Positions 15,534 to 18,410 of a stretch of DNA of 64,000 nt are shown here, in pieces. Both the position numbers and the translations under genes were made by a program. The DNA comes from a phage. Numbering within the stretch: position 1 is the stretch's first letter; each line of letters starts with the position of its first letter. The notes beneath the pieces are model-generated. The model searched no databases, was not told where the DNA came from, and saw only the letters and a program-made list of their open reading frames with translations. Where the stretch lies: the sequence record PZ338878.1; one strand, given 5' to 3'.

Positions 15534-15609
15534 GGTTCCATAGCTCACTGACGAGAGCGCACACCTCATAAGTGTCGAGGGCAGGGATTGTAACCCTGGG
15601 GAACCACCA
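15534..15609 (+). tRNA. tRNA-Met (anticodon CAT; Ile2 or initiator not excluded)
   Basis: 76 nt; acceptor GGTTCCA/GGGAACC (one 7:66 mismatch); anticodon loop CTCATAA; non-canonical T-loop ATTGTAA; CCA encoded. Confidence 0.5.
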
Positions 15610-15640
15610 TTTAAAAGGAGATGCTATGCATCTCCTATAT

Positions 15641-15726
15641 GCAAGTGTGGTGGAATTGGTGATACACATTGTGCTTAAAACGCAACGCTTAAATGATTGA
15701 GGGTTCGAATCCCTCCACTTGCACCA
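15641..15726 (+). tRNA. tRNA-Leu (anticodon TAA)
   Basis: 86 nt class II; acceptor GCAAGTG/CACTTGC; anticodon loop CTTAAAA; long variable arm; T-arm GAGGG-TTCGAAT-CCCTC; A73; CCA encoded. Confidence 0.7.
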
Positions 15727-15728
15727 AC

Positions 15729-15834
15729 GCCTAGTAGGGTATTTGGTAATTCCGAGGCCATCAAAGCCTGAAAAATATGTTAGACCGCTTTGTCTAACTA
15801 AATACGAAATATGGTTCGATTCCATAACTAGGCT
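15729..15834 (+). ncRNA. tRNA-like element, 106 nt, non-canonical (possible stable small RNA, pseudo-tRNA or suppressor-like)
   Basis: Perfect 7-bp acceptor pairing GCCTAGT/ACTAGGC and canonical T-arm TATGG-TTCGATT-CCATA, but a 40-nt internal region with a 7-bp hairpin (15779-15798); candidate anticodon loop CATCAAA; no CCA encoded. Confidence 0.3.
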
Positions 15835-15866
15835 TCAATTTAAATAATAATTTTAGTAAAAATATC

Positions 15867-15895
15867 TTGACATTCACTTAGTTTTTTGTTATAGT
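15867..15895 (+). promoter_or_regulatory. sigma70-type promoter inside the tRNA array (TTGACA, 17 nt, TGt-TATAGT)
   Basis: Perfect -35 plus TG-extended -10, about 12 nt upstream of the next tRNA-like gene. Confidence 0.5.
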
Positions 15896-15906
15896 TACTG
15901 TGAAAA

Positions 15907-15988
15907 CGGGGTGTATCTCACCTGACTTCTAATCAGGCGTTAACCGAGTAATTGGAGTATGCAGGTTCGAATCCTGTCACCCCGACCA
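15907..15988 (+). tRNA. tRNA-Arg (anticodon TCT)-like, non-canonical D region
   Basis: 82 nt; acceptor CGGGGTG/CACCCCG; canonical anticodon arm CCTGA-CTTCTAA-TCAGG; T-arm GCAGG-TTCGAAT-CCTGT; CCA encoded; only 5 nt where the D-arm should be and a 23-nt region before the T-arm. Confidence 0.45.
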
Positions 15989-16006
15989 AAAAGTTTTAAA
16001 AACTAC

Positions 16007-16036
16007 TTGACAAGCAAGATAGTTTTATGTTAGATT
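16007..16036 (+). promoter_or_regulatory. sigma70-type promoter inside the tRNA array (TTGACA, 18 nt, TGt-TAGATT)
   Basis: Perfect -35 plus TG-extended -10, about 15 nt upstream of tRNA-Ser. Confidence 0.5.
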
Positions 16037-16051
16037 TAAAGTATGATAACG

Positions 16052-16141
16052 GGAAGGTAGGGCGCAGCGGTGCGCAACCAGGTTTGAACCCTGGCCCATT
16101 GTAGCGATACGGTGATGGTTCGACTCCATTATCTTCCTCCA
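16052..16141 (+). tRNA. tRNA-Ser (anticodon TGA)
   Basis: 90 nt class II; acceptor GGAAGGT/ATCTTCC; anticodon arm CCAGG-TTTGAAC-CCTGG; 19-nt variable arm; T-arm GATGG-TTCGACT-CCATT; CCA encoded. Confidence 0.7.
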
Positions 16142-16159
16142 AATTCAACTAGGAGCTTT

Positions 16160-16312
16160 ATGAATTATAAAACTATTGGACAGGTTGTTACCGGAGTTAA
16201 GATTGTAGATAATAAAGTTGTTTATGAGTATTCTAATCTTCAACAATCTGAAGATGGTAAAAATATTCGTATGGTAAAAGCAGAACAAAAAGATTCCGGT
16301 TGTTTTGAATAA
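16160..16312 (+). CDS. small hypothetical protein (50 aa) between tRNA genes
   Basis: AGGAG RBS then ATG at 16160; the ORF-track start at 16112 lies inside tRNA-Ser. Confidence 0.3.
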   Translation: MNYKTIGQVVTGVKIVDNKVVYEYSNLQQSEDGKNIRMVKAEQKDSGCFE

Positions 16313-16320
16313 TTAAGAAC

Positions 16321-16406
16321 GGTAGATTGGTGAAATGGTAGCCACAACAGTTTGCTAAACTGTCGTCGGAAACGGCGTGTAGGTTCAAGTCCTACATCTA
16401 CCGCCA
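16321..16406 (+). tRNA. tRNA-Ser (anticodon GCT)
   Basis: 86 nt class II; acceptor GGTAGAT/ATCTACC; anticodon arm ACAGT-TTGCTAA-ACTGT; long variable arm; T-arm GTAGG-TTCAAGT-CCTAC; G73; CCA encoded. Confidence 0.7.
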
Positions 16407-16540
16407 AGTTATCTTTAATGTAGCTTGTAATCTTACTTTAATAGAGTAAACTTTCGGCAGATGGCCTCCACCATCTTACCGATACCCTAATACTTCATAG
16501 TCAAGTGCCGCAAACACTGGCTATTTTAAAGATAATTTAT

Positions 16541-16616
16541 ACATCGTTAGCTTAGTTGGTAGAGCAAGGGGCTTTTAACTCCAAGGTCGAAGGTTCGAAT
16601 CCTTCACGATGTACCA
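16541..16616 (+). tRNA. tRNA-Lys (anticodon TTT)
   Basis: 76 nt; acceptor ACATCGT/ACGATGT (A1-U72); D-arm GCTT-AGTTGGTA-GAGC; anticodon loop CTTTTAA; T-arm GAAGG-TTCGAAT-CCTTC; CCA encoded. Confidence 0.65.
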
Positions 16617-16621
16617 AACAC

Positions 16622-16708
16622 GTAGGTATCGCATAGCGGCAATTGCTGGAGACTGTAAATCTCCTGCCCTTCGGGGCTTCGTTGGTTCGAGTCCAACTAC
16701 CTGCACCA
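16622..16708 (+). tRNA. tRNA-Tyr (anticodon GTA)
   Basis: 87 nt class II; acceptor GTAGGTA/TACCTGC; anticodon arm GGAGA-CTGTAAA-TCTCC; 16-nt variable arm with TTCG loop; T-arm GTTGG-TTCGAGT-CCAAC; CCA encoded. Confidence 0.7.
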
Positions 16709-17301: not shown

Positions 17302-17315
17302 ATATCAAAAGCCTC

Positions 17316-17345
17316 TTGACAAAGGGGCTAATAATATGTTAGAGT
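17316..17345 (+). promoter_or_regulatory. sigma70-type promoter inside the tRNA array (TTGACA, 18 nt, TGt-TAGAGT)
   Basis: Perfect -35 plus TG-extended -10, about 12 nt upstream of tRNA-Gly. Confidence 0.5.
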
Positions 17346-17356
17346 AATATTGTTAA

Positions 17357-17431
17357 GCGGGTATAGTGTTAATGGTAGCATATGAGGTTTCCACCCTCCA
17401 GGTGCAGGTTCAAGTCCTGTTACTCGCTCCA
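17357..17431 (+). tRNA. tRNA-Gly (anticodon TCC)
   Basis: 75 nt; acceptor GCGGGTA/TACTCGC; D-arm GTGT-TAATGGTA-GCAT; anticodon loop TTTCCAC; T-arm GCAGG-TTCAAGT-CCTGT; CCA encoded. Confidence 0.7.
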
Positions 17432-17530
17432 AGATTATTTAAATGGAATCGCTAGAGAACATTTCTCTTTTCGCTCATGGTTTTCTCCTTCAAACTCTAG
17501 CGGTTCTTTTTAAGTGATTTTTAGTTTTAT

Positions 17531-17605
17531 TGGAGATTAGCCTAGTGGGAAGGCAACGGCCTTTGAAGTCGTGATGACTAGGTTCGATTCCTAGATCTCC
17601 AGCCA
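17531..17605 (+). tRNA. tRNA-Gln (anticodon TTG)
   Basis: 75 nt; U1-A72 and G73 as in E. coli tRNA-Gln (from memory); D-arm GCCT-AGTGGGA-AGGC; anticodon arm ACGGC-CTTTGAA-GTCGT; T-arm CTAGG-TTCGATT-CCTAG; CCA encoded. Confidence 0.7.
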
Positions 17606-17612
17606 ATATTTA

Positions 17613-17688
17613 CAGTGCGTAGCGCAGTTGGTAGCGTGGGAGCTTTGGATGCTTCGGGTCGCAGGTTCGAGTCCTGCCGCACTGACCA
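17613..17688 (+). tRNA. tRNA-Pro (anticodon TGG)
   Basis: 76 nt; C1-G72 acceptor CAGTGCG/CGCACTG; D-arm GCGC-AGTTGGTA-GCGT; anticodon arm GGAGC-TTTGGAT-GCTTC; T-arm GCAGG-TTCGAGT-CCTGC; CCA encoded. Confidence 0.7.
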
Positions 17689-17693
17689 AATTT

Positions 17694-17768
17694 GCAGAGA
17701 TAGCTGAGACGGATTAGTGCTACCCTGAAAAGGTAGAAAGGATGGATCGTTACCATCTCTCTGCACCA
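17694..17768 (+). tRNA. tRNA-Phe (anticodon GAA)
   Basis: 75 nt; acceptor GCAGAGA/TCTCTGC; anticodon arm CTACC-CTGAAAA-GGTAG; atypical T-loop ATCGTTA; CCA encoded. Confidence 0.65.
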
Positions 17769-17845
17769 AATAACACCATCCAAGGAGTAGACTTGGTTAA
17801 CTGTCAATAGCACATTGAGGCTTCTTACAGTGGTGTACTTATTAT

Positions 17846-17930
17846 GGCTAAGTGGTGGAATGGTATACACGATACGCTTAGAACGTATTGCCCCAAGGGA
17901 TTGTGAGTTCGAGTCTCACCTTAGCTACCA
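17846..17930 (+). tRNA. tRNA-Leu (anticodon TAG)
   Basis: 85 nt class II; acceptor GGCTAAG/CTTAGCT (G1-U72 wobble); anticodon arm ATACG-CTTAGAA-CGTAT; long variable arm; T-arm GTGAG-TTCGAGT-CTCAC; A73; CCA encoded. Confidence 0.65.
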
Positions 17931-18018
17931 TATCTAAGAGATATCATAGGGTTTGCAACGGATATCTACCGTCCTGTTAAGGATACCACGCCAAGACGGG
18001 TTATAAAGGGTTAGCCAT

Positions 18019-18094
18019 TGATAGTGTGAAGCTGGCGTTTCGAGTGCTTTCATAAGGCATTGCGAGAAGAGTTCGATTCTCTTACTATCAACCA
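18019..18094 (+). tRNA. tRNA-Met or tRNA-Ile2 (anticodon CAT)
   Basis: 76 nt; acceptor TGATAGT/ACTATCA; anticodon arm GTGCT-TTCATAA-GGCAT; T-arm AAGAG-TTCGATT-CTCTT; CCA encoded. Confidence 0.55.
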
Positions 18095-18109
18095 AATTAC
18101 TACAGATTG

Positions 18110-18188
18110 CGCGGGATAGAGGAGTCTGGTCGTCCTCGCCAGTTTCATATGCTGGAGATCATCGGTTCAAATCCGATTCCCGCCTCCA
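18110..18188 (+). tRNA. tRNA-Met (anticodon CAT), 1:72 mismatch
   Basis: 79 nt; acceptor CGCGGGA/TCCCGCC with C1/C72 unpaired; D-arm GAGG-(11-nt loop)-CCTC; anticodon arm CCAGT-TTCATAT-GCTGG; T-arm ATCGG-TTCAAAT-CCGAT; CCA encoded. Confidence 0.5.
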
Positions 18189-18246
18189 CTAAATACCTCC
18201 CTTCTGGTGTAATGATTAAATTACATTGACACTTCAAGGAACTCAT

Positions 18247-18329
18247 AGCCGGGTAGATTTAAAAGAGTATGGTACTCAATATGGCTCCAAACCATAGATC
18301 AAGGGGTTCGATTCCTCACCTTGCTGCCA
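18247..18329 (+). tRNA. tRNA-Trp (anticodon CCA)-like with enlarged D region
   Basis: 83 nt; anticodon arm TATGG-CTCCAAA-CCATA (as E. coli tRNA-Trp, from memory); T-arm GGGG-TTCGATT-CCTC; 3' CCTTGCT-G-CCA; acceptor AGCCGGG pairs 6/7; about 7 extra nt before the D stem. Confidence 0.4.
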
Positions 18330-18334
18330 ATTAT

Positions 18335-18410
18335 TGTGGTATCGTACAGATGGTTAGTACACTCGACCGATAATCGAGAAACAACGGTTCGACTCCGTTT
18401 ACCACGACCA
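18335..18410 (+). tRNA. tRNA-Ile (anticodon GAT)
   Basis: 76 nt; acceptor TGTGGTA/TACCACG (U1-G72); D-arm GTAC-AGATGGTTA-GTAC; anticodon arm CTCGA-CCGATAA-TCGAG (C33 unusual); T-arm AACGG-TTCGACT-CCGTT; CCA encoded. Confidence 0.6.

What the first reader, a model, noticed from the sequence alone, without database searches (positions are those of the whole stretch)
15534..18410. Dense 19-member tRNA array driven by repeated internal promoters
Within 2.9 kb I find genes for Met (three CAT copies), Leu (two), Ser (two), Arg, Lys, Tyr, Asn, Thr, Gly, Gln, Pro, Phe, Trp and Ile, nearly all with encoded CCA, interspersed with three near-identical promoters and closed by a terminator at 18524. Two spacers of 134 and 88 nt (16407-16540, 17931-18018) contain hairpins but no recognisable tRNA and may encode small RNAs.
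Basis: partly seen in the sequence, partly recalled or inferred. Interest (0 to 1): 0.5.

Follow-up and report, generated by a model that had tools for sequence, protein, structure and literature searches.

The report
Phage tRNA cluster with odd tRNAs
This is the already annotated tRNA gene cluster of a phi92-like E. coli phage, but besides 16 ordinary tRNAs it holds three unconventional ones, including an arginine tRNA with no normal D arm that recurs in over a hundred phage contigs, plus conserved structured RNAs in the "spacers".

Summary
The observation largely holds. ARAGORN finds 16 tRNA genes at 15534-18410, all on the + strand and none elsewhere in the window. The window is 98-99% identical to Justusliebigvirus (phi92-like) coliphages, whose published genomes list the same 16 tRNAs, so the array itself is known.

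- 15907-15988 is a tRNA-Arg(UCU) with no D arm. Comparison of about 100 distinct phage sequences shows a 3-bp helix extending the anticodon stem and a D-loop-like UAAUUGGA placed 3' of it. Every anticodon found is arginine (UCU, CCU or ACG). It almost never co-occurs with a canonical tRNA-Arg(UCU), and only one of 185,579 bacterial and archaeal genomes has it.
- 18247-18329 is a tRNA-Trp(CCA) with a 9-nt insert before the D stem.
- 15729-15837 is a long-variable-arm tRNA with a UCA anticodon.

The 134-nt spacer is a conserved four-way-junction RNA found in 184 phage records. It usually lies just upstream of tRNA-Tyr or of tRNA-Lys followed by tRNA-Tyr. The 88-nt spacer shows no significant structure. 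Two other spacers are a homologue of T5 "RNA3" and a covarying long hairpin.

Promoter and terminator motifs are present; expression is untested.

The parts
15200..15229 (+). Promoter-like site upstream of the small ORF 15260-15526 that precedes the array
   Evidence: TTGACA, 18-nt spacer, TAAGAT with TG. Member of repeat family D5.
15534..15609 (+). tRNA(CAU) no. 1, probably tRNA-Ile2 (reads AUA after lysidine modification)
   Evidence: ARAGORN Met(cat). Missed by Rfam. Its best match among T5's three annotated CAU tRNAs is tRNAI2(CAU), at 69%. Read from the sequence: unusual T loop ATTGTAA and a D loop without GG.
15641..15726 (+). tRNA-Leu(UAA)
   Evidence: ARAGORN. Rfam 57.1 bits.
15729..15837 (+). 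Unconventional 106-nt tRNA with a long variable arm, anticodon loop CAUCAAA (anticodon UCA, A at position 33) and no encoded CCA
   Evidence: Found neither by ARAGORN nor by Rfam. The homologue in Erwinia phage Hena1 is annotated tRNA-sup(tca). The cloverleaf is 97% paired, with 6 pairs changed on both sides between the two lineages.
15867..15895 (+). Promoter-like site
   Evidence: TTGACA, 17-nt spacer, TATAGT with TG; 11 of 12 matches.
15907..15988 (+). Non-canonical tRNA-Arg(UCU) without a D arm. Layout: acceptor stem; UAUCUCA; anticodon arm; 23-nt connector containing GAG and UAAUUGGA; T arm; ACCA.
   Evidence: Rfam tRNA 40 bits, with 15 D-arm positions replaced by 4 nt and a 20-nt insertion. 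Annotated tRNA-OTHER in phage cardinal. Covariation in 31 sequences. Long-range helix CUC/GAG.
16007..16036 (+). Promoter-like site
   Evidence: TTGACA, 18-nt spacer, TAGATT with TG. Conserved in phAPEC8-type phages.
16052..16141 (+). tRNA-Ser(UGA)
   Evidence: ARAGORN. Appears in Rfam only as a sub-threshold tRNA-Sec hit.
16160..16312 (+). Small ORF inside the array (50 aa, phi92 gp111 family)
   Evidence: ORF. PHROG 22441, unknown function. Annotated in relatives.
16321..16406 (+). tRNA-Ser(GCU)
16406..16538 (+). S1: conserved four-way-junction RNA with a 13+3 bp closing stem and three hairpins
   Evidence: z -4.3. Present in 184 phage records. 36 pairs are 98% paired, with 6 pairs changed on both sides. 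RNAalifold gives the same structure independently. Covariance-model scores are 90-136 bits on the + strand for full copies, against 22-41 bits on the - strand. No Rfam family matches.
16541..16616 (+). tRNA-Lys(UUU)
16622..16708 (+). tRNA-Tyr(GUA)
16716..16800 (+). tRNA-Asn(GUU), 85 nt with an enlarged variable arm
16805..16871 (+). S2: tRNA-like RNA with acceptor-like and T-arm-like helices, no anticodon loop and no CCA. Homologue of T5 'RNA3'.
   Evidence: z -2.9. Shares UAGAGUUAAG..AAACC and the YAUCGAAU loop with T5 RNA3, and follows tRNA-Asn as in T5. Helices differ compensatorily between lineages.
16880..16954 (+). tRNA-Thr(UGU)
16978..17301 (+). ORF inside the array (107 aa, phi92 gp114 family)
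   Evidence: ORF. PHROG 8792, unknown function.
17316..17345 (+). Promoter-like site
   Evidence: TTGACA, 18-nt spacer, TAGAGT with TG.
17357..17431 (+). tRNA-Gly(UCC)
17433..17519 (+). S3: 24-bp hairpin carrying a conserved 30-nt pyrimidine-rich loop
   Evidence: z -4.8. The stem differs but stays paired in FKP3, Schickermooser and Tr1, while the loop sequence is kept.
17531..17605 (+). tRNA-Gln(UUG)
17613..17688 (+). tRNA-Pro(UGG)
17694..17768 (+). tRNA-Phe(GAA)
17846..17930 (+). tRNA-Leu(UAG)
17931..18018 (+). No significant structure; part of an insertion present in only some relatives, together with the next tRNA.
   Evidence: z 0.03. Found in only about 20 Justusliebigvirus records plus Citrobacter phage Tr1. 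Absent from phage muut.
18019..18094 (+). tRNA(CAU) no. 2, probably elongator Met
   Evidence: ARAGORN. Missed by Rfam. Closest to T5 tRNAM(CAU).
18110..18188 (+). tRNA(CAU) no. 3, probably initiator
   Evidence: Mismatch at pair 1-72. Closest to T5 tRNAfM.
18247..18329 (+). Unconventional tRNA-Trp(CCA): a 9-nt insert between position 9 and the D stem, and a 5-nt D loop
   Evidence: Rfam 22.9 bits, below threshold. ARAGORN finds it only with -ps90. Homologues in PBES02, FKP3, SarahDanielle, LPML1 and Tr1. 21 pairs are 91% paired, with 8 changed on both sides.
18335..18410 (+). tRNA-Ile(GAU)
18411..18523 (+). S7: conserved 3' trailer between the last tRNA and the terminator
   Evidence: 91% identical in phAPEC8 and also present in FKP3. 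Possible pseudoknot at 18462-18486, with compensatory changes in FKP3.
18524..18549 (+). Intrinsic-terminator-like hairpin and T run
   Evidence: 7-bp stem with 5 G-C pairs, followed by TTTTTGCTATT.

Best explanation
The region is the tRNA gene cluster of a phi92-like (Justusliebigvirus) E. coli myophage. All genes lie on the + strand. Host sigma-70 RNA polymerase probably transcribes them from several strong promoters (TTGACA plus a TG-extended -10). Transcription probably stops at one intrinsic terminator. Host RNase P, RNase E or III and exonucleases probably cut out the individual RNAs.

The cluster encodes 16 conventional tRNAs and three unconventional but conserved ones.
1. A tRNA-Arg(UCU) with no D arm. 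A 3-bp helix between positions 11-13 and three nucleotides downstream of the anticodon arm lengthens the anticodon helix. A D-loop-like UAAUUGGA follows that helix and leads into the T arm.
2. A tRNA-Trp(CCA) with a 9-nt insert before its D stem.
3. A long-variable-arm tRNA with anticodon UCA.

Taken together, the tRNAs supply codons that this AT-rich phage uses far more than its host does: AGA, ACA, CUA, AUA, GGA, CCA, UCA, CAA and UUA. They can also replace host tRNAs destroyed by tRNA-targeting defence systems.

The 'spacers' are mostly RNA genes too. They are of the kind annotated in phage T5 as 'stable RNAs with unknown functions'. S1 is a four-way junction, usually found upstream of tRNA-Tyr or of Lys-Tyr. 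S2 is a homologue of T5 RNA3. S3 is a long hairpin that presents a conserved loop.

Shown: sequence, structure, covariation, distribution and codon statistics. Inferred: transcription, processing, aminoacylation and decoding.
For: Identity and array.
- 98-99% identity to Justusliebigvirus genomes that carry annotated tRNA arrays.
- The BME3 paper lists the same 16 tRNAs (PMC12210895).
- 16 tRNAs by ARAGORN and 14 by Rfam.
- Promoter and terminator motifs.

tRNA-Arg(UCU).
- In 31 distinct sequences, the 17 stem pairs plus a tentative 4-bp connector hairpin (21 pairs) are 97.7% paired. 14 pairs and 161 cells change on both sides, and 0 of 500 shuffles reach that cell count.
- A looser motif scan hit more than 120 viral contigs. 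All 96 well-formed sequences analysed have a 7-nt 5' connector.
- The extra 3-bp helix is paired in 273 of 288 cells. All three pairs form in 81 of 96 sequences. Twelve fully complementary triplet combinations occur. In shuffles the mean number of fully paired sequences is 22.8 and the maximum is 36. Every off-register control scored 15 or fewer except one, which pairs near-invariant residues only.
- With no constraint on the anticodon, 107 distinct copies carry UCU, CCU or ACG only.
- Only 2 of 54 loci that hold it also hold a canonical tRNA-Arg(tct), against 11 of 17 loci without it (Fisher p = 3e-7).
- Phage LPML1 has the non-canonical gene where its sibling SarahDanielle has a canonical tRNA-Arg(tct).
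- One hit in 185,579 bacterial and archaeal genomes.
- AGA is the codon most over-represented against E. coli (5.1x), and this is the only UCU gene in the array.

Other RNAs.
- Trp. UCA tRNA.
- S1. In T5-like phages S1 starts about 17 nt after the -10 of the promoter annotated as P14a in T5.
- S2 and T5 RNA3. S3.

Anti-defence role of phage tRNAs: PMC11555353.
Against: - No expression, processing or aminoacylation data exist for this phage.
- The Arg RNA lacks the conventional D arm. From established knowledge, E. coli ArgRS uses A20 in the D loop; the UGGA motif may replace it, but that is inference.
- The motif scans fixed parts of the sequence, so invariance of those parts in that set is by construction.
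- The loci used for the co-occurrence test are partial genomes.
- The UCA tRNA has A33 instead of the near-universal U33 and, in this window, no CCA. No in-frame UGA read-through candidate was found.
- The codon comparison used a crude ORF set and an E. coli table recalled from memory.
- The functions of S1, S2 and S3 are unknown.
Confidence: 0.8

Rival explanations
1. The three odd tRNA-like genes and the tRNA-like spacer are decaying pseudogenes, leftovers of recombination in a fast-changing array, with no function.
For: Automated tools miss them or score them low. The UCA gene has lost CCA in this window. Arrays in relatives differ by insertions and deletions and by HNH endonuclease insertions. 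phAPEC8's record marks one CAU gene as pseudo.
Against: Helices are kept through many two-sided changes while loops and connectors stay fixed, across several virus families. The Arg form carries only Arg anticodons and replaces the canonical gene rather than accompanying it. Pseudogenes would not keep 97-99% pairing.
Confidence: 0.07
2. The D-arm-less Arg RNA, and perhaps the Trp and UCA RNAs, are not decoders. They are decoys or sponges that present an authentic anticodon stem-loop to a host tRNA-targeting nuclease or modification enzyme, or variants reshaped to escape such a nuclease.
For: The anticodon loop CUUCUAA is almost invariant. Phage tRNAs are known to counter tRNA-cleaving defences: T5 tRNA-Tyr against retron-Eco7, and tRNA-Lys against PrrC and PARIS (PMC11555353, PMC11464382, PMC10264068). 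The core is too altered for easy recognition by enzymes that read the D arm.
Against: A full acceptor stem, a G or A discriminator, frequent encoded CCA, a canonical T arm and a GGA motif are all retained, and a decoy would not need them. It is mutually exclusive with the canonical tRNA-Arg(UCU). The phage has a high demand for AGA. The escape version of this idea is compatible with the main explanation.
Confidence: 0.2
3. The structured spacers S1 and S3 are only processing or insulating modules. Their long closing stems are RNase III or RNase E sites, or folding insulators between tRNAs, and the excised pieces have no activity of their own.
For: S1, S3, the different T5 leader and the T5 stable RNAs all have 5'/3' closing stems of 8-24 bp. 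S3's 24-bp stem is of RNase III substrate size. From my own knowledge, T4 species 1 RNA is cut by RNase III. FKP3 keeps the closing stem of S1 but not its interior.
Against: S1 keeps specific loop and junction sequences (UUARYAG, AAAYYUU, AUACC) across Demerecviridae, Vequintavirinae and Stephanstirmvirinae while its stems change. S3 keeps a 30-nt loop sequence over covarying stems. A mere insulator would not constrain unpaired sequence.
Confidence: 0.3
4. S1 is a DNA-level element, such as a homing-endonuclease target, a recombination site or an origin, rather than an RNA.
For: tRNA arrays in these phages are hot spots for HNH endonuclease genes. Within the genus, S1 is more variable than its flanks.
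Against: G-U pairs make the structure strand-specific: 90-136 bits on the + strand for full copies against 22-41 bits on the - strand. Its orientation always matches the tRNAs. Compensatory changes preserve RNA helices.
Confidence: 0.04

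Closest known systems
Phage T5 tRNA region with its 'stable RNAs with unknown functions' (RNAI, RNAIII, RNAIV, RNA1, RNA2, RNA3, RNA2H, RNAX; record NC_005859)
   Same: A dense, co-oriented tRNA cluster broken up by promoters and small ORFs. tRNA-sized structured RNAs sit between the tRNAs. Most have a closing stem formed by their two ends, and some are tRNA-like. S2 is homologous to RNA3 and follows tRNA-Asn in both phages. S1 occupies, in T5-like phages, the leader position after the promoter annotated as P14a in T5.
   Different: Different virus family and gene order. T5 itself lacks S1 and has another structured leader there. None of the other window spacers matches a T5 stable RNA by blastn. 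T5's tRNA-Arg(UCU) is canonical.
Phage T4 tRNA cluster with species 1 and species 2 RNAs (rnaC, rnaD)
   Same: Host-transcribed and host-processed phage tRNA operon that also yields stable small RNAs of unknown function. This comparison rests on established knowledge and was not tested here.
   Different: No sequence relation was sought or found. T4 has 8 tRNAs, partly without encoded CCA, whereas here 18 of 19 encode CCA.
D-arm-lacking mitochondrial tRNAs, such as metazoan mt-tRNA-Ser (review PMC7609411)
   Same: There is no D arm, and a short connector takes its place. The phage RNA lengthens its anticodon helix with extra pairs. Such extension in mt-tRNA-Ser is known to me from the literature and was not checked here.
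   Different: The phage RNA keeps a fully canonical T arm and acceptor stem and a D-loop-like UAAUUGGA. That motif is relocated to the 3' side of the anticodon arm. It is specific for arginine. It must work with bacterial ArgRS, EF-Tu and ribosomes, not with co-evolved mitochondrial factors. The review lists no phage or bacterial example.
Phage suppressor tRNAs and tRNA-Sec
   Same: The gene at 15729-15837 has a UCA anticodon and a long variable arm. Its homologue in Erwinia phage Hena1 is annotated tRNA-sup(tca).
   Different: It has a 7/5 acceptor/T layout and a 4-bp D stem, not the 8/5 layout and 6-bp D stem of bacterial tRNA-Sec. It has A33 and no CCA here. The phage uses the standard code with few TGA stops (3 of 50) and shows no read-through candidate. 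It is restricted to Justusliebigvirus and Henunavirus.
Phage tRNAs as counter-defence (T5 tRNA-Tyr against retron-Eco7 PtuAB; tRNA-Lys against PrrC and PARIS)
   Same: The array carries tRNA-Tyr and tRNA-Lys next to S1. Such tRNAs are reported to rescue infection when host tRNAs are cleaved (PMC11555353).
   Different: No defence system or cleavage was tested here. The link between S1 and tRNA-Tyr is positional only.

Membership tests
Canonical tRNA (Rfam RF00005), applied to 15907-15988 | 7-bp acceptor stem, discriminator base and CCA | tested here: met
   All 7 pairs form in 30 of the 32 distinct sequences, and this copy ends in ACCA. 6 of the 7 pairs change on both sides across 31 sequences.
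Canonical tRNA (Rfam RF00005), applied to 15907-15988 | 5-bp anticodon stem with a 7-nt loop | tested here: met
   100% paired, and all five pairs covary. The loop is CUUCUAA.
Canonical tRNA (Rfam RF00005), applied to 15907-15988 | T arm with GTTCRA | tested here: met
   98.7% paired, loop TTCGAAT.
Canonical tRNA (Rfam RF00005), applied to 15907-15988 | D arm (stem 10-13/22-25 enclosing the D loop) between position 9 and the anticodon arm | tested here: not met
   Only 7 nt lie between the acceptor and anticodon stems. In the Rfam alignment, 15 D-arm positions are replaced by 4 nt. The partner strand and the D-loop-like motif lie 3' of the anticodon arm.
Canonical tRNA (Rfam RF00005), applied to 15907-15988 | Aminoacylation and decoding | not testable with these tools
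   Indirect evidence only: anticodons are restricted to Arg, the RNA excludes the canonical tRNA-Arg(tct), and AGA is heavily used.
Mitochondrial-type D-arm-lacking tRNA | D arm replaced by a short connector, with an elongated anticodon helix | tested here: met
   A 7-nt connector in all 96 well-formed sequences analysed, and an extra 3-bp helix with twelve fully complementary triplet combinations.
Mitochondrial-type D-arm-lacking tRNA | Organellar origin with reduced or atypical T arm and elbow | tested here: not met
   Found in phage genomes. The T arm is canonical and a GG-containing UAAUUGGA motif is kept.
Bacterial tRNA-Sec or suppressor tRNA, applied to 15729-15837 | UCA anticodon | tested here: met
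   The loop CAUCAAA is invariant in both lineages.
Bacterial tRNA-Sec or suppressor tRNA, applied to 15729-15837 | 8/5 acceptor/T layout with a 6-bp D stem and 4-nt D loop (tRNA-Sec) | tested here: not met
   The layout is 7/5 with a 4-bp D stem and an 8-nt D loop. The Rfam tRNA-Sec model gives no hit here.
Bacterial tRNA-Sec or suppressor tRNA, applied to 15729-15837 | Read-through of UGA in phage genes | tested here: inconclusive
   No in-frame TGA candidate in the 64-kb window; the one hit lies antisense to a real gene. TGA stops are rare, 3 of 50. The rest of the genome was not examined.
T5 stable RNA 'RNA3' (putative tRNA-like RNA), applied to 16805-16871 | Shared sequence blocks and architecture, located directly after tRNA-Asn | tested here: met
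   The blocks UAGAGUUAAG..AAACC and AUU are shared. The 5-bp stem with the loop YAUCGAAU and the acceptor-like stem differ compensatorily. The synteny with tRNA-Asn is the same.
T5 stable RNA 'RNA3' (putative tRNA-like RNA), applied to 16805-16871 | Accumulates as a stable RNA in infected cells | not testable with these tools
   The only support is the wording of the T5 record.
Any Rfam 15 family, applied to S1 (16406-16538) | Match to a curated covariance model | tested here: not met
   No hit up to E = 10 in 15000-19000.
Phage tRNA gene cluster (as in T4, T5, Felix O1, phi92) | Many co-oriented tRNA genes within a few kb of a virulent phage genome, anticodons biased to codons the phage over-uses | tested here: met
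   16 to 19 genes lie in 2.9 kb. The window matches Justusliebigvirus genomes. Codons read by the array (AGA, ACA, CUA, GGA, CCA and others) are enriched 1.5 to 5-fold; AUA (2.3x) would be read only if the first CAU tRNA is tRNA-Ile2.

The most novel reading that the evidence does not exclude
Many phages, from coliphages of at least five groups to over a hundred environmental viral contigs, use a tRNA-Arg architecture that has not been described. It has no D arm, its anticodon helix is lengthened by a covarying 3-bp helix, and the D-loop motif (UAAUUGGA, keeping G18-G19-A20) is moved to the 3' side of the anticodon arm. It would nevertheless be charged by bacterial ArgRS and decode AGA, AGG or CGN on bacterial ribosomes. 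It may have been selected because the altered core escapes host enzymes that cleave or inactivate tRNA-Arg. In the same arrays, S1 would be a new trans-acting phage RNA linked to tRNA-Tyr.
Probability: 0.45. Interest if true: 0.8.

Novelty: new variant of a known kind. Interest (0 to 1): 0.6.

Why it matters
The array itself is routine. Phage genome papers list 16 tRNAs for this genus and stop there.

The gene that would read AGA, the phage's most over-used rare codon, is invisible to standard annotation because it breaks the cloverleaf rule. D-arm loss has so far been treated as a peculiarity of animal mitochondria, which have co-evolved translation factors.

A D-arm-less tRNA that works with ordinary bacterial ArgRS, EF-Tu and ribosomes would have three consequences:
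- It would widen what is thought structurally permissible for bacterial translation.
- It would offer a natural scaffold for tRNA engineering.
- It would give a concrete test of the idea that phage tRNAs are shaped by host tRNA-targeting immunity.

It also shows that phage tRNA counts are systematically too low, which affects codon-compensation analyses.

S1, S2 and S3 show that the old, unexplained T5 'stable RNAs' belong to conserved families shared across phage families. That makes them tractable by comparative and genetic methods.

Tried and rejected
- Rfam at E up to 10 over 15000-19000 gave nothing for any spacer. The weak RyhB and rimP hits only reflect the terminator. This also argues against HDV-like, hammerhead or other known ribozymes downstream of the tRNAs.
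- blastn of the whole array against the T5 tRNA region matched tRNAs only. No T5 stable RNA was found that way. The S2-RNA3 relation emerged only from structure and motif comparison.
- The covariance model of S1 gave no copy in T5, Felix O1-like or T4-like loci.
- The S3 loop is the exact antisense of a Shine-Dalgarno plus AUG region. I looked for a target and found none in the window. In E. coli genomes there were only chance-level 23-nt matches (E about 1) in 9% of genomes. The 8-codon minus-strand micro-ORF is not conserved in frame in relatives, so coding was rejected.
- For the UCA tRNA I looked for in-frame TGA read-through. The single hit is antisense to a 939-aa gene.
- An early reading of the Trp gene as D-armless, based on the Rfam alignment, was replaced. 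Homologues showed that the true acceptor stem starts at 18247 and that a covarying D stem exists.
- A hairpin inside the Arg connector (YCGA-GUAA-NUGG) is not supported: the fourth pair fails in 11 of 31 sequences, and variants lack the hairpin.
- The first, strict motif scan for S1 in viral contigs gave only 4 loci.
- Literature searches found no description of the Arg architecture or of S1. One query failed on a too-short term.

Full report
**What the window is.** The 3.6 kb around the finding is 98-99% identical over its full length to Escherichia phages of the genus Justusliebigvirus (phi92-like, Stephanstirmvirinae). Examples are phages cardinal, pEC-M2929-1AR.1 and Paula. In all, 487 phage records share parts of it. 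In those records the same stretch is annotated as a tRNA array that follows a nicotinamide phosphoribosyltransferase gene and small ORFs. A paper on phage BME3 lists 16 tRNAs with the same anticodons as here (PMC12210895). The array as such is already known.

**Checking the observation: tRNAs.**
- ARAGORN finds 16 tRNA genes between 15534 and 18410, all on the + strand, and none elsewhere in the 64 kb.
- Rfam's tRNA model passes its threshold at 14 loci. It misses two CAU genes. Ser(UGA) shows up only below threshold, as a tRNA-Sec hit.
- Rfam adds 15907-15985 (40 bits), which carries a UCU anticodon. A sub-threshold hit at 18266-18326 (22.9 bits) carries CCA.
- 18 of 19 genes encode CCA.

**Checking the observation: promoters, terminator, spacers.**
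- Sigma-70-like sites with TTGACA and a TG-extended -10 lie at 15867, 16007 and 17316 inside the array. Further sites lie at 15200 and 18566 outside it.
- The shared motif is enriched in the window: 7 occurrences against 1.9 expected.
- The flanks of these sites are only 62-76% identical.
- The terminator motif at 18524 is present.
- The 134-nt spacer folds far better than shuffles (z -4.3). The 88-nt spacer does not (z 0.03).

**The Arg gene (15907-15988).**

*Layout.* In the Rfam alignment the 15 D-arm positions are replaced by 4 nt, and 20 nt are inserted after the anticodon arm. Close relatives annotate the gene as 'tRNA-OTHER' or not at all.

*Distribution.* blastn finds it, 84-87% identical over at least 80% of its length, in Felixounavirus, Asteriusvirus, Mydovirus and a T4-like Pectobacterium phage. 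An exact-motif scan found 45 viral contigs with 32 distinct sequences. One of 185,579 bacterial and archaeal genomes has it, on a metagenome-assembled contig.

*Stems.* In 31 sequences, the 17 acceptor, anticodon and T-stem pairs plus a tentative 4-bp connector hairpin (21 pairs) are 97.7% paired. 14 pairs and 161 cells change on both sides. None of 500 shuffles reaches that cell count, and the slid controls reach at most 50% pairing.

Of 105 distinct sequences, 97 are well formed, and 96 of these have exactly 7 nt between the acceptor and anticodon stems. In those 96:
- Nucleotides 4-6 of that connector are complementary to the three nucleotides immediately 5' of UAAUUGGA.
- 273 of 288 cells are paired, and all three pairs form in 81 of 96 sequences.
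- Twelve fully complementary triplet combinations occur, including CUC/GAG, CGG/CCG, CCC/GGG, CAC/GUG, CAG/CUG, CAU/AUG and CGC/GCG.
- In shuffles the mean is 22.8 fully paired sequences and the maximum is 36.
- Every off-register control gives 15 or fewer except one, which pairs near-invariant residues only.

The anticodon helix is therefore extended by a 3-bp helix that encloses the anticodon arm. A D-loop-like sequence with GG followed by A comes after it and leads into a normal T arm.

*Arginine identity.* With no constraint on the anticodon, the 107 distinct copies in 1.6 Mb of held phage DNA carry UCU (102), ACG (3) or CCU (2). All of these read arginine codons.

*Replacement of the canonical gene.* The RNA replaces a canonical tRNA-Arg(UCU) rather than accompanying it. 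Only 2 of 54 loci have both, and in one of these the non-canonical copy carries CCU. By contrast, 11 of 17 loci without it have the canonical gene (p = 3e-7). Phage LPML1 has it where its sibling SarahDanielle has a canonical tRNA-Arg(UCU).

*Demand.* In this window AGA is the codon most over-used relative to E. coli (5.1x), and this is the only UCU gene. The E. coli table was recalled from memory and the ORF set is crude.

*Conclusion.* I infer a functional tRNA-Arg. Charging and decoding are not shown.

*Prior description.* A review of non-canonical tRNAs mentions no phage case and reports D-arm loss only in mitochondria (PMC7609411). My other searches found no description.

**The Trp gene (18247-18329).** Homologues in Cronobacter phage PBES02, Klebsiella phage FKP3, Hafnia phage SarahDanielle, phage LPML1 and Citrobacter phage Tr1 fix the acceptor stem at 18247. 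The gene is a cloverleaf with a 9-nt insert between position 9 and a covarying 4-bp D stem, a 5-nt D loop, and the anticodon loop CUCCAAA. Its 21 pairs are 91% paired, with 8 changed on both sides.

**The UCA gene (15729-15837).**
- Neither tool reports it.
- It has a 7-bp acceptor stem, a D arm with GG, a 4-bp anticodon stem with the loop CAUCAAA, a 7-bp variable-arm hairpin and a canonical T arm. It ends in UCA instead of CCA.
- Its 70%-identical homologue in Erwinia phage Hena1 is annotated tRNA-sup(tca) and does end in CCA.
- The cloverleaf is 97% paired, with six pairs changed on both sides between the two lineages.
- It is confined to Justusliebigvirus and Henunavirus.
- It does not have tRNA-Sec geometry.
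- TGA stops are rare here (3 of 50). I found no read-through candidate.
- Its role is open.

**The three CAU genes.** Compared with T5's annotated tRNAs, they most resemble tRNA-Ile2, elongator Met and initiator Met, in that order. This fits the 2.3-fold enrichment of AUA.

**Spacer S1 (16406-16538).**

*Distribution and position.* blastn finds it in 184 phage records: Justusliebigvirus, Phapecoctavirus, Vequintavirus, Certrevirus, Avunavirus and T5-like Demerecviridae. It is always in the orientation of the tRNAs. It usually lies directly 5' of tRNA-Tyr or of Lys-Tyr. In the T5-like phage Eos it precedes tRNA-Arg(ACG) instead.

*Structure.* It is a four-way junction:
- A 13-bp closing stem, extended by G-U-A pairing with U-A-Y.
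- A 5-bp hairpin with the loop UUARYAG.
- A bipartite hairpin.
- A 7- to 9-bp hairpin, mostly capped by a GNRA-like loop.

*Support.* 36 pairs are 98.2% paired. Six pairs and 24 cells change on both sides. Slid controls reach at most 54%. RNAalifold finds the same fold independently. A covariance model scores 90-136 bits on the + strand for full copies, against 22-41 bits on the - strand. The structure is therefore an RNA feature of the transcribed strand.

*Context.* No Rfam family matches. In the T5-like phage HildyBeyeler, S1 begins about 17 nt after the -10 of the promoter that the T5 record names P14a. T5 itself carries a different, equally structured leader there (z -4.9).

**Other spacers.**
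- S2 (16805-16871) shares sequence blocks, architecture and its position after tRNA-Asn with T5 'RNA3, putative tRNA-like RNA'.
- S3 (17433-17519) is a 24-bp hairpin (z -4.8). Its stem sequence differs but stays paired in FKP3, Schickermooser and Tr1. Its 30-nt loop is conserved.
- S7 (18411-18523) is conserved as far as phAPEC8 and FKP3.
It has no significant fold.
- The T5 record annotates eight 'stable RNAs with unknown functions' in its tRNA region, and most have the same closed-end architecture. The spacer RNAs here are therefore new members of a known but unexplained kind.

**How it most likely works.**
- *Shown:* gene content, RNA structures, conservation, promoter and terminator motifs, codon statistics.
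- *Inferred from established knowledge of T4, T5 and E. coli tRNA biogenesis:* host RNA polymerase transcribes several units, RNase P and other host nucleases release the RNAs, and host synthetases charge them.
- The tRNAs match codons enriched 1.5 to 5-fold in the phage.
- Phage tRNAs can also restore pools depleted by tRNA-cleaving defences. This has been shown for T5 tRNA-Tyr and for tRNA-Lys (PMC11555353).
- The altered cores of the Arg and Trp tRNAs may be neutral drift that the translation system tolerates. They may instead be escape from host enzymes that recognise the tRNA core. I cannot decide between these.

**Verdict.** The genuinely interesting content is a phage-specific tRNA-Arg architecture without a D arm, supported by heavy covariation, together with unannotated conserved RNAs (S1, S3) in the 'spacers'.

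Noticed in passing
window 17462-17491 (loop of S3): The conserved loop UUUCUCUUUUCGCUCAUGGUUUUCUCCUUC is the exact antisense of a strong ribosome-binding site plus start codon (GAAGGAGAAAACCAUGAGCG). It is 86% complementary over 21 nt to the start region of the ORF at 15260 (repeat I3). No better target was found in the window or in E. coli genomes.
   Followed up: partly
window 18462-18486 (in S7): Possible H-type pseudoknot: GGAG pairs with CUCC, and UGCG pairs with CGCA. In Klebsiella phage FKP3 both helices change compensatorily, to AGAG/CUCU and UUGCG/CGCAA.
   Followed up: partly
window 16716-16800: tRNA-Asn(GUU) is 85 nt long with an enlarged variable arm of about 14 nt. From my own knowledge, E. 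coli tRNA-Asn has a short variable loop. The same long form is annotated in phAPEC8 and HildyBeyeler.
   Followed up: no
window 15534-15609 and 17694-17768: Two tRNAs accepted by ARAGORN have non-standard T loops: AUUGUAA in the first CAU tRNA, whose D loop also lacks GG, and AUCGUUA in tRNA-Phe. Rfam misses the first one entirely.
   Followed up: no
L027 about 736-830; also L011 3624-3731 and L004 5121-5226: In Phapecoctavirus phages (ESCO5, Schickermooser), S1 is followed by a tRNA-Tyr-like sequence (GACUGUAAAUC loop) that is neither annotated nor found by ARAGORN. The same sequence starts after S1 in Vequintavirus JES2013, where the gap is also unannotated. This may be another unconventional tRNA.
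   Followed up: no
L007 7213-7390 and L008 9853-10021: Two Justusliebigvirus-like viral contigs carry S1 with an internal duplication of the second and third hairpin module. Phage A7_1 (L024) has only the alternative module.
   Followed up: partly
window, 50 long ORFs: Stop codon use is TAA 41, TAG 6, TGA 3. TGA is rarer than TAG, the reverse of E. coli (from my own knowledge), in a phage that carries a UCA-anticodon tRNA. The sample is small and the ORF set crude.
   Followed up: partly
relatives of 15200-18800: HNH homing-endonuclease genes are inserted at various points in the arrays of relatives: PATM, ZYD, SD2, VEcB, EH7 and T5. In phage warpig an annotated 'HNH endonuclease' CDS overlaps the 3' end of the unannotated Arg RNA.
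   Followed up: no
GenBank records MG065645, MG065639, MG065689 and OK283618: 'Campylobacter phage' A145, A150 and A110a match the three array segments tested (S1, S3 and the Trp gene) at 92-99% identity. 'Listeria phage' LPML1 is an Ounavirinae genome. The host labels look doubtful.
   Followed up: no
window 13053-14786: A 577-aa ORF just upstream of the array corresponds to the nicotinamide or nicotinate phosphoribosyltransferase annotated in relatives. The same gene precedes the tRNA array in Cronobacter phage PBES02.
   Followed up: no
L015 3498-3560 (phage warpig): A second occurrence of GUAUCUCA is followed by a 6-bp hairpin with the loop UUCCAG. It is not a recognisable member of the Arg family.
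   Followed up: no
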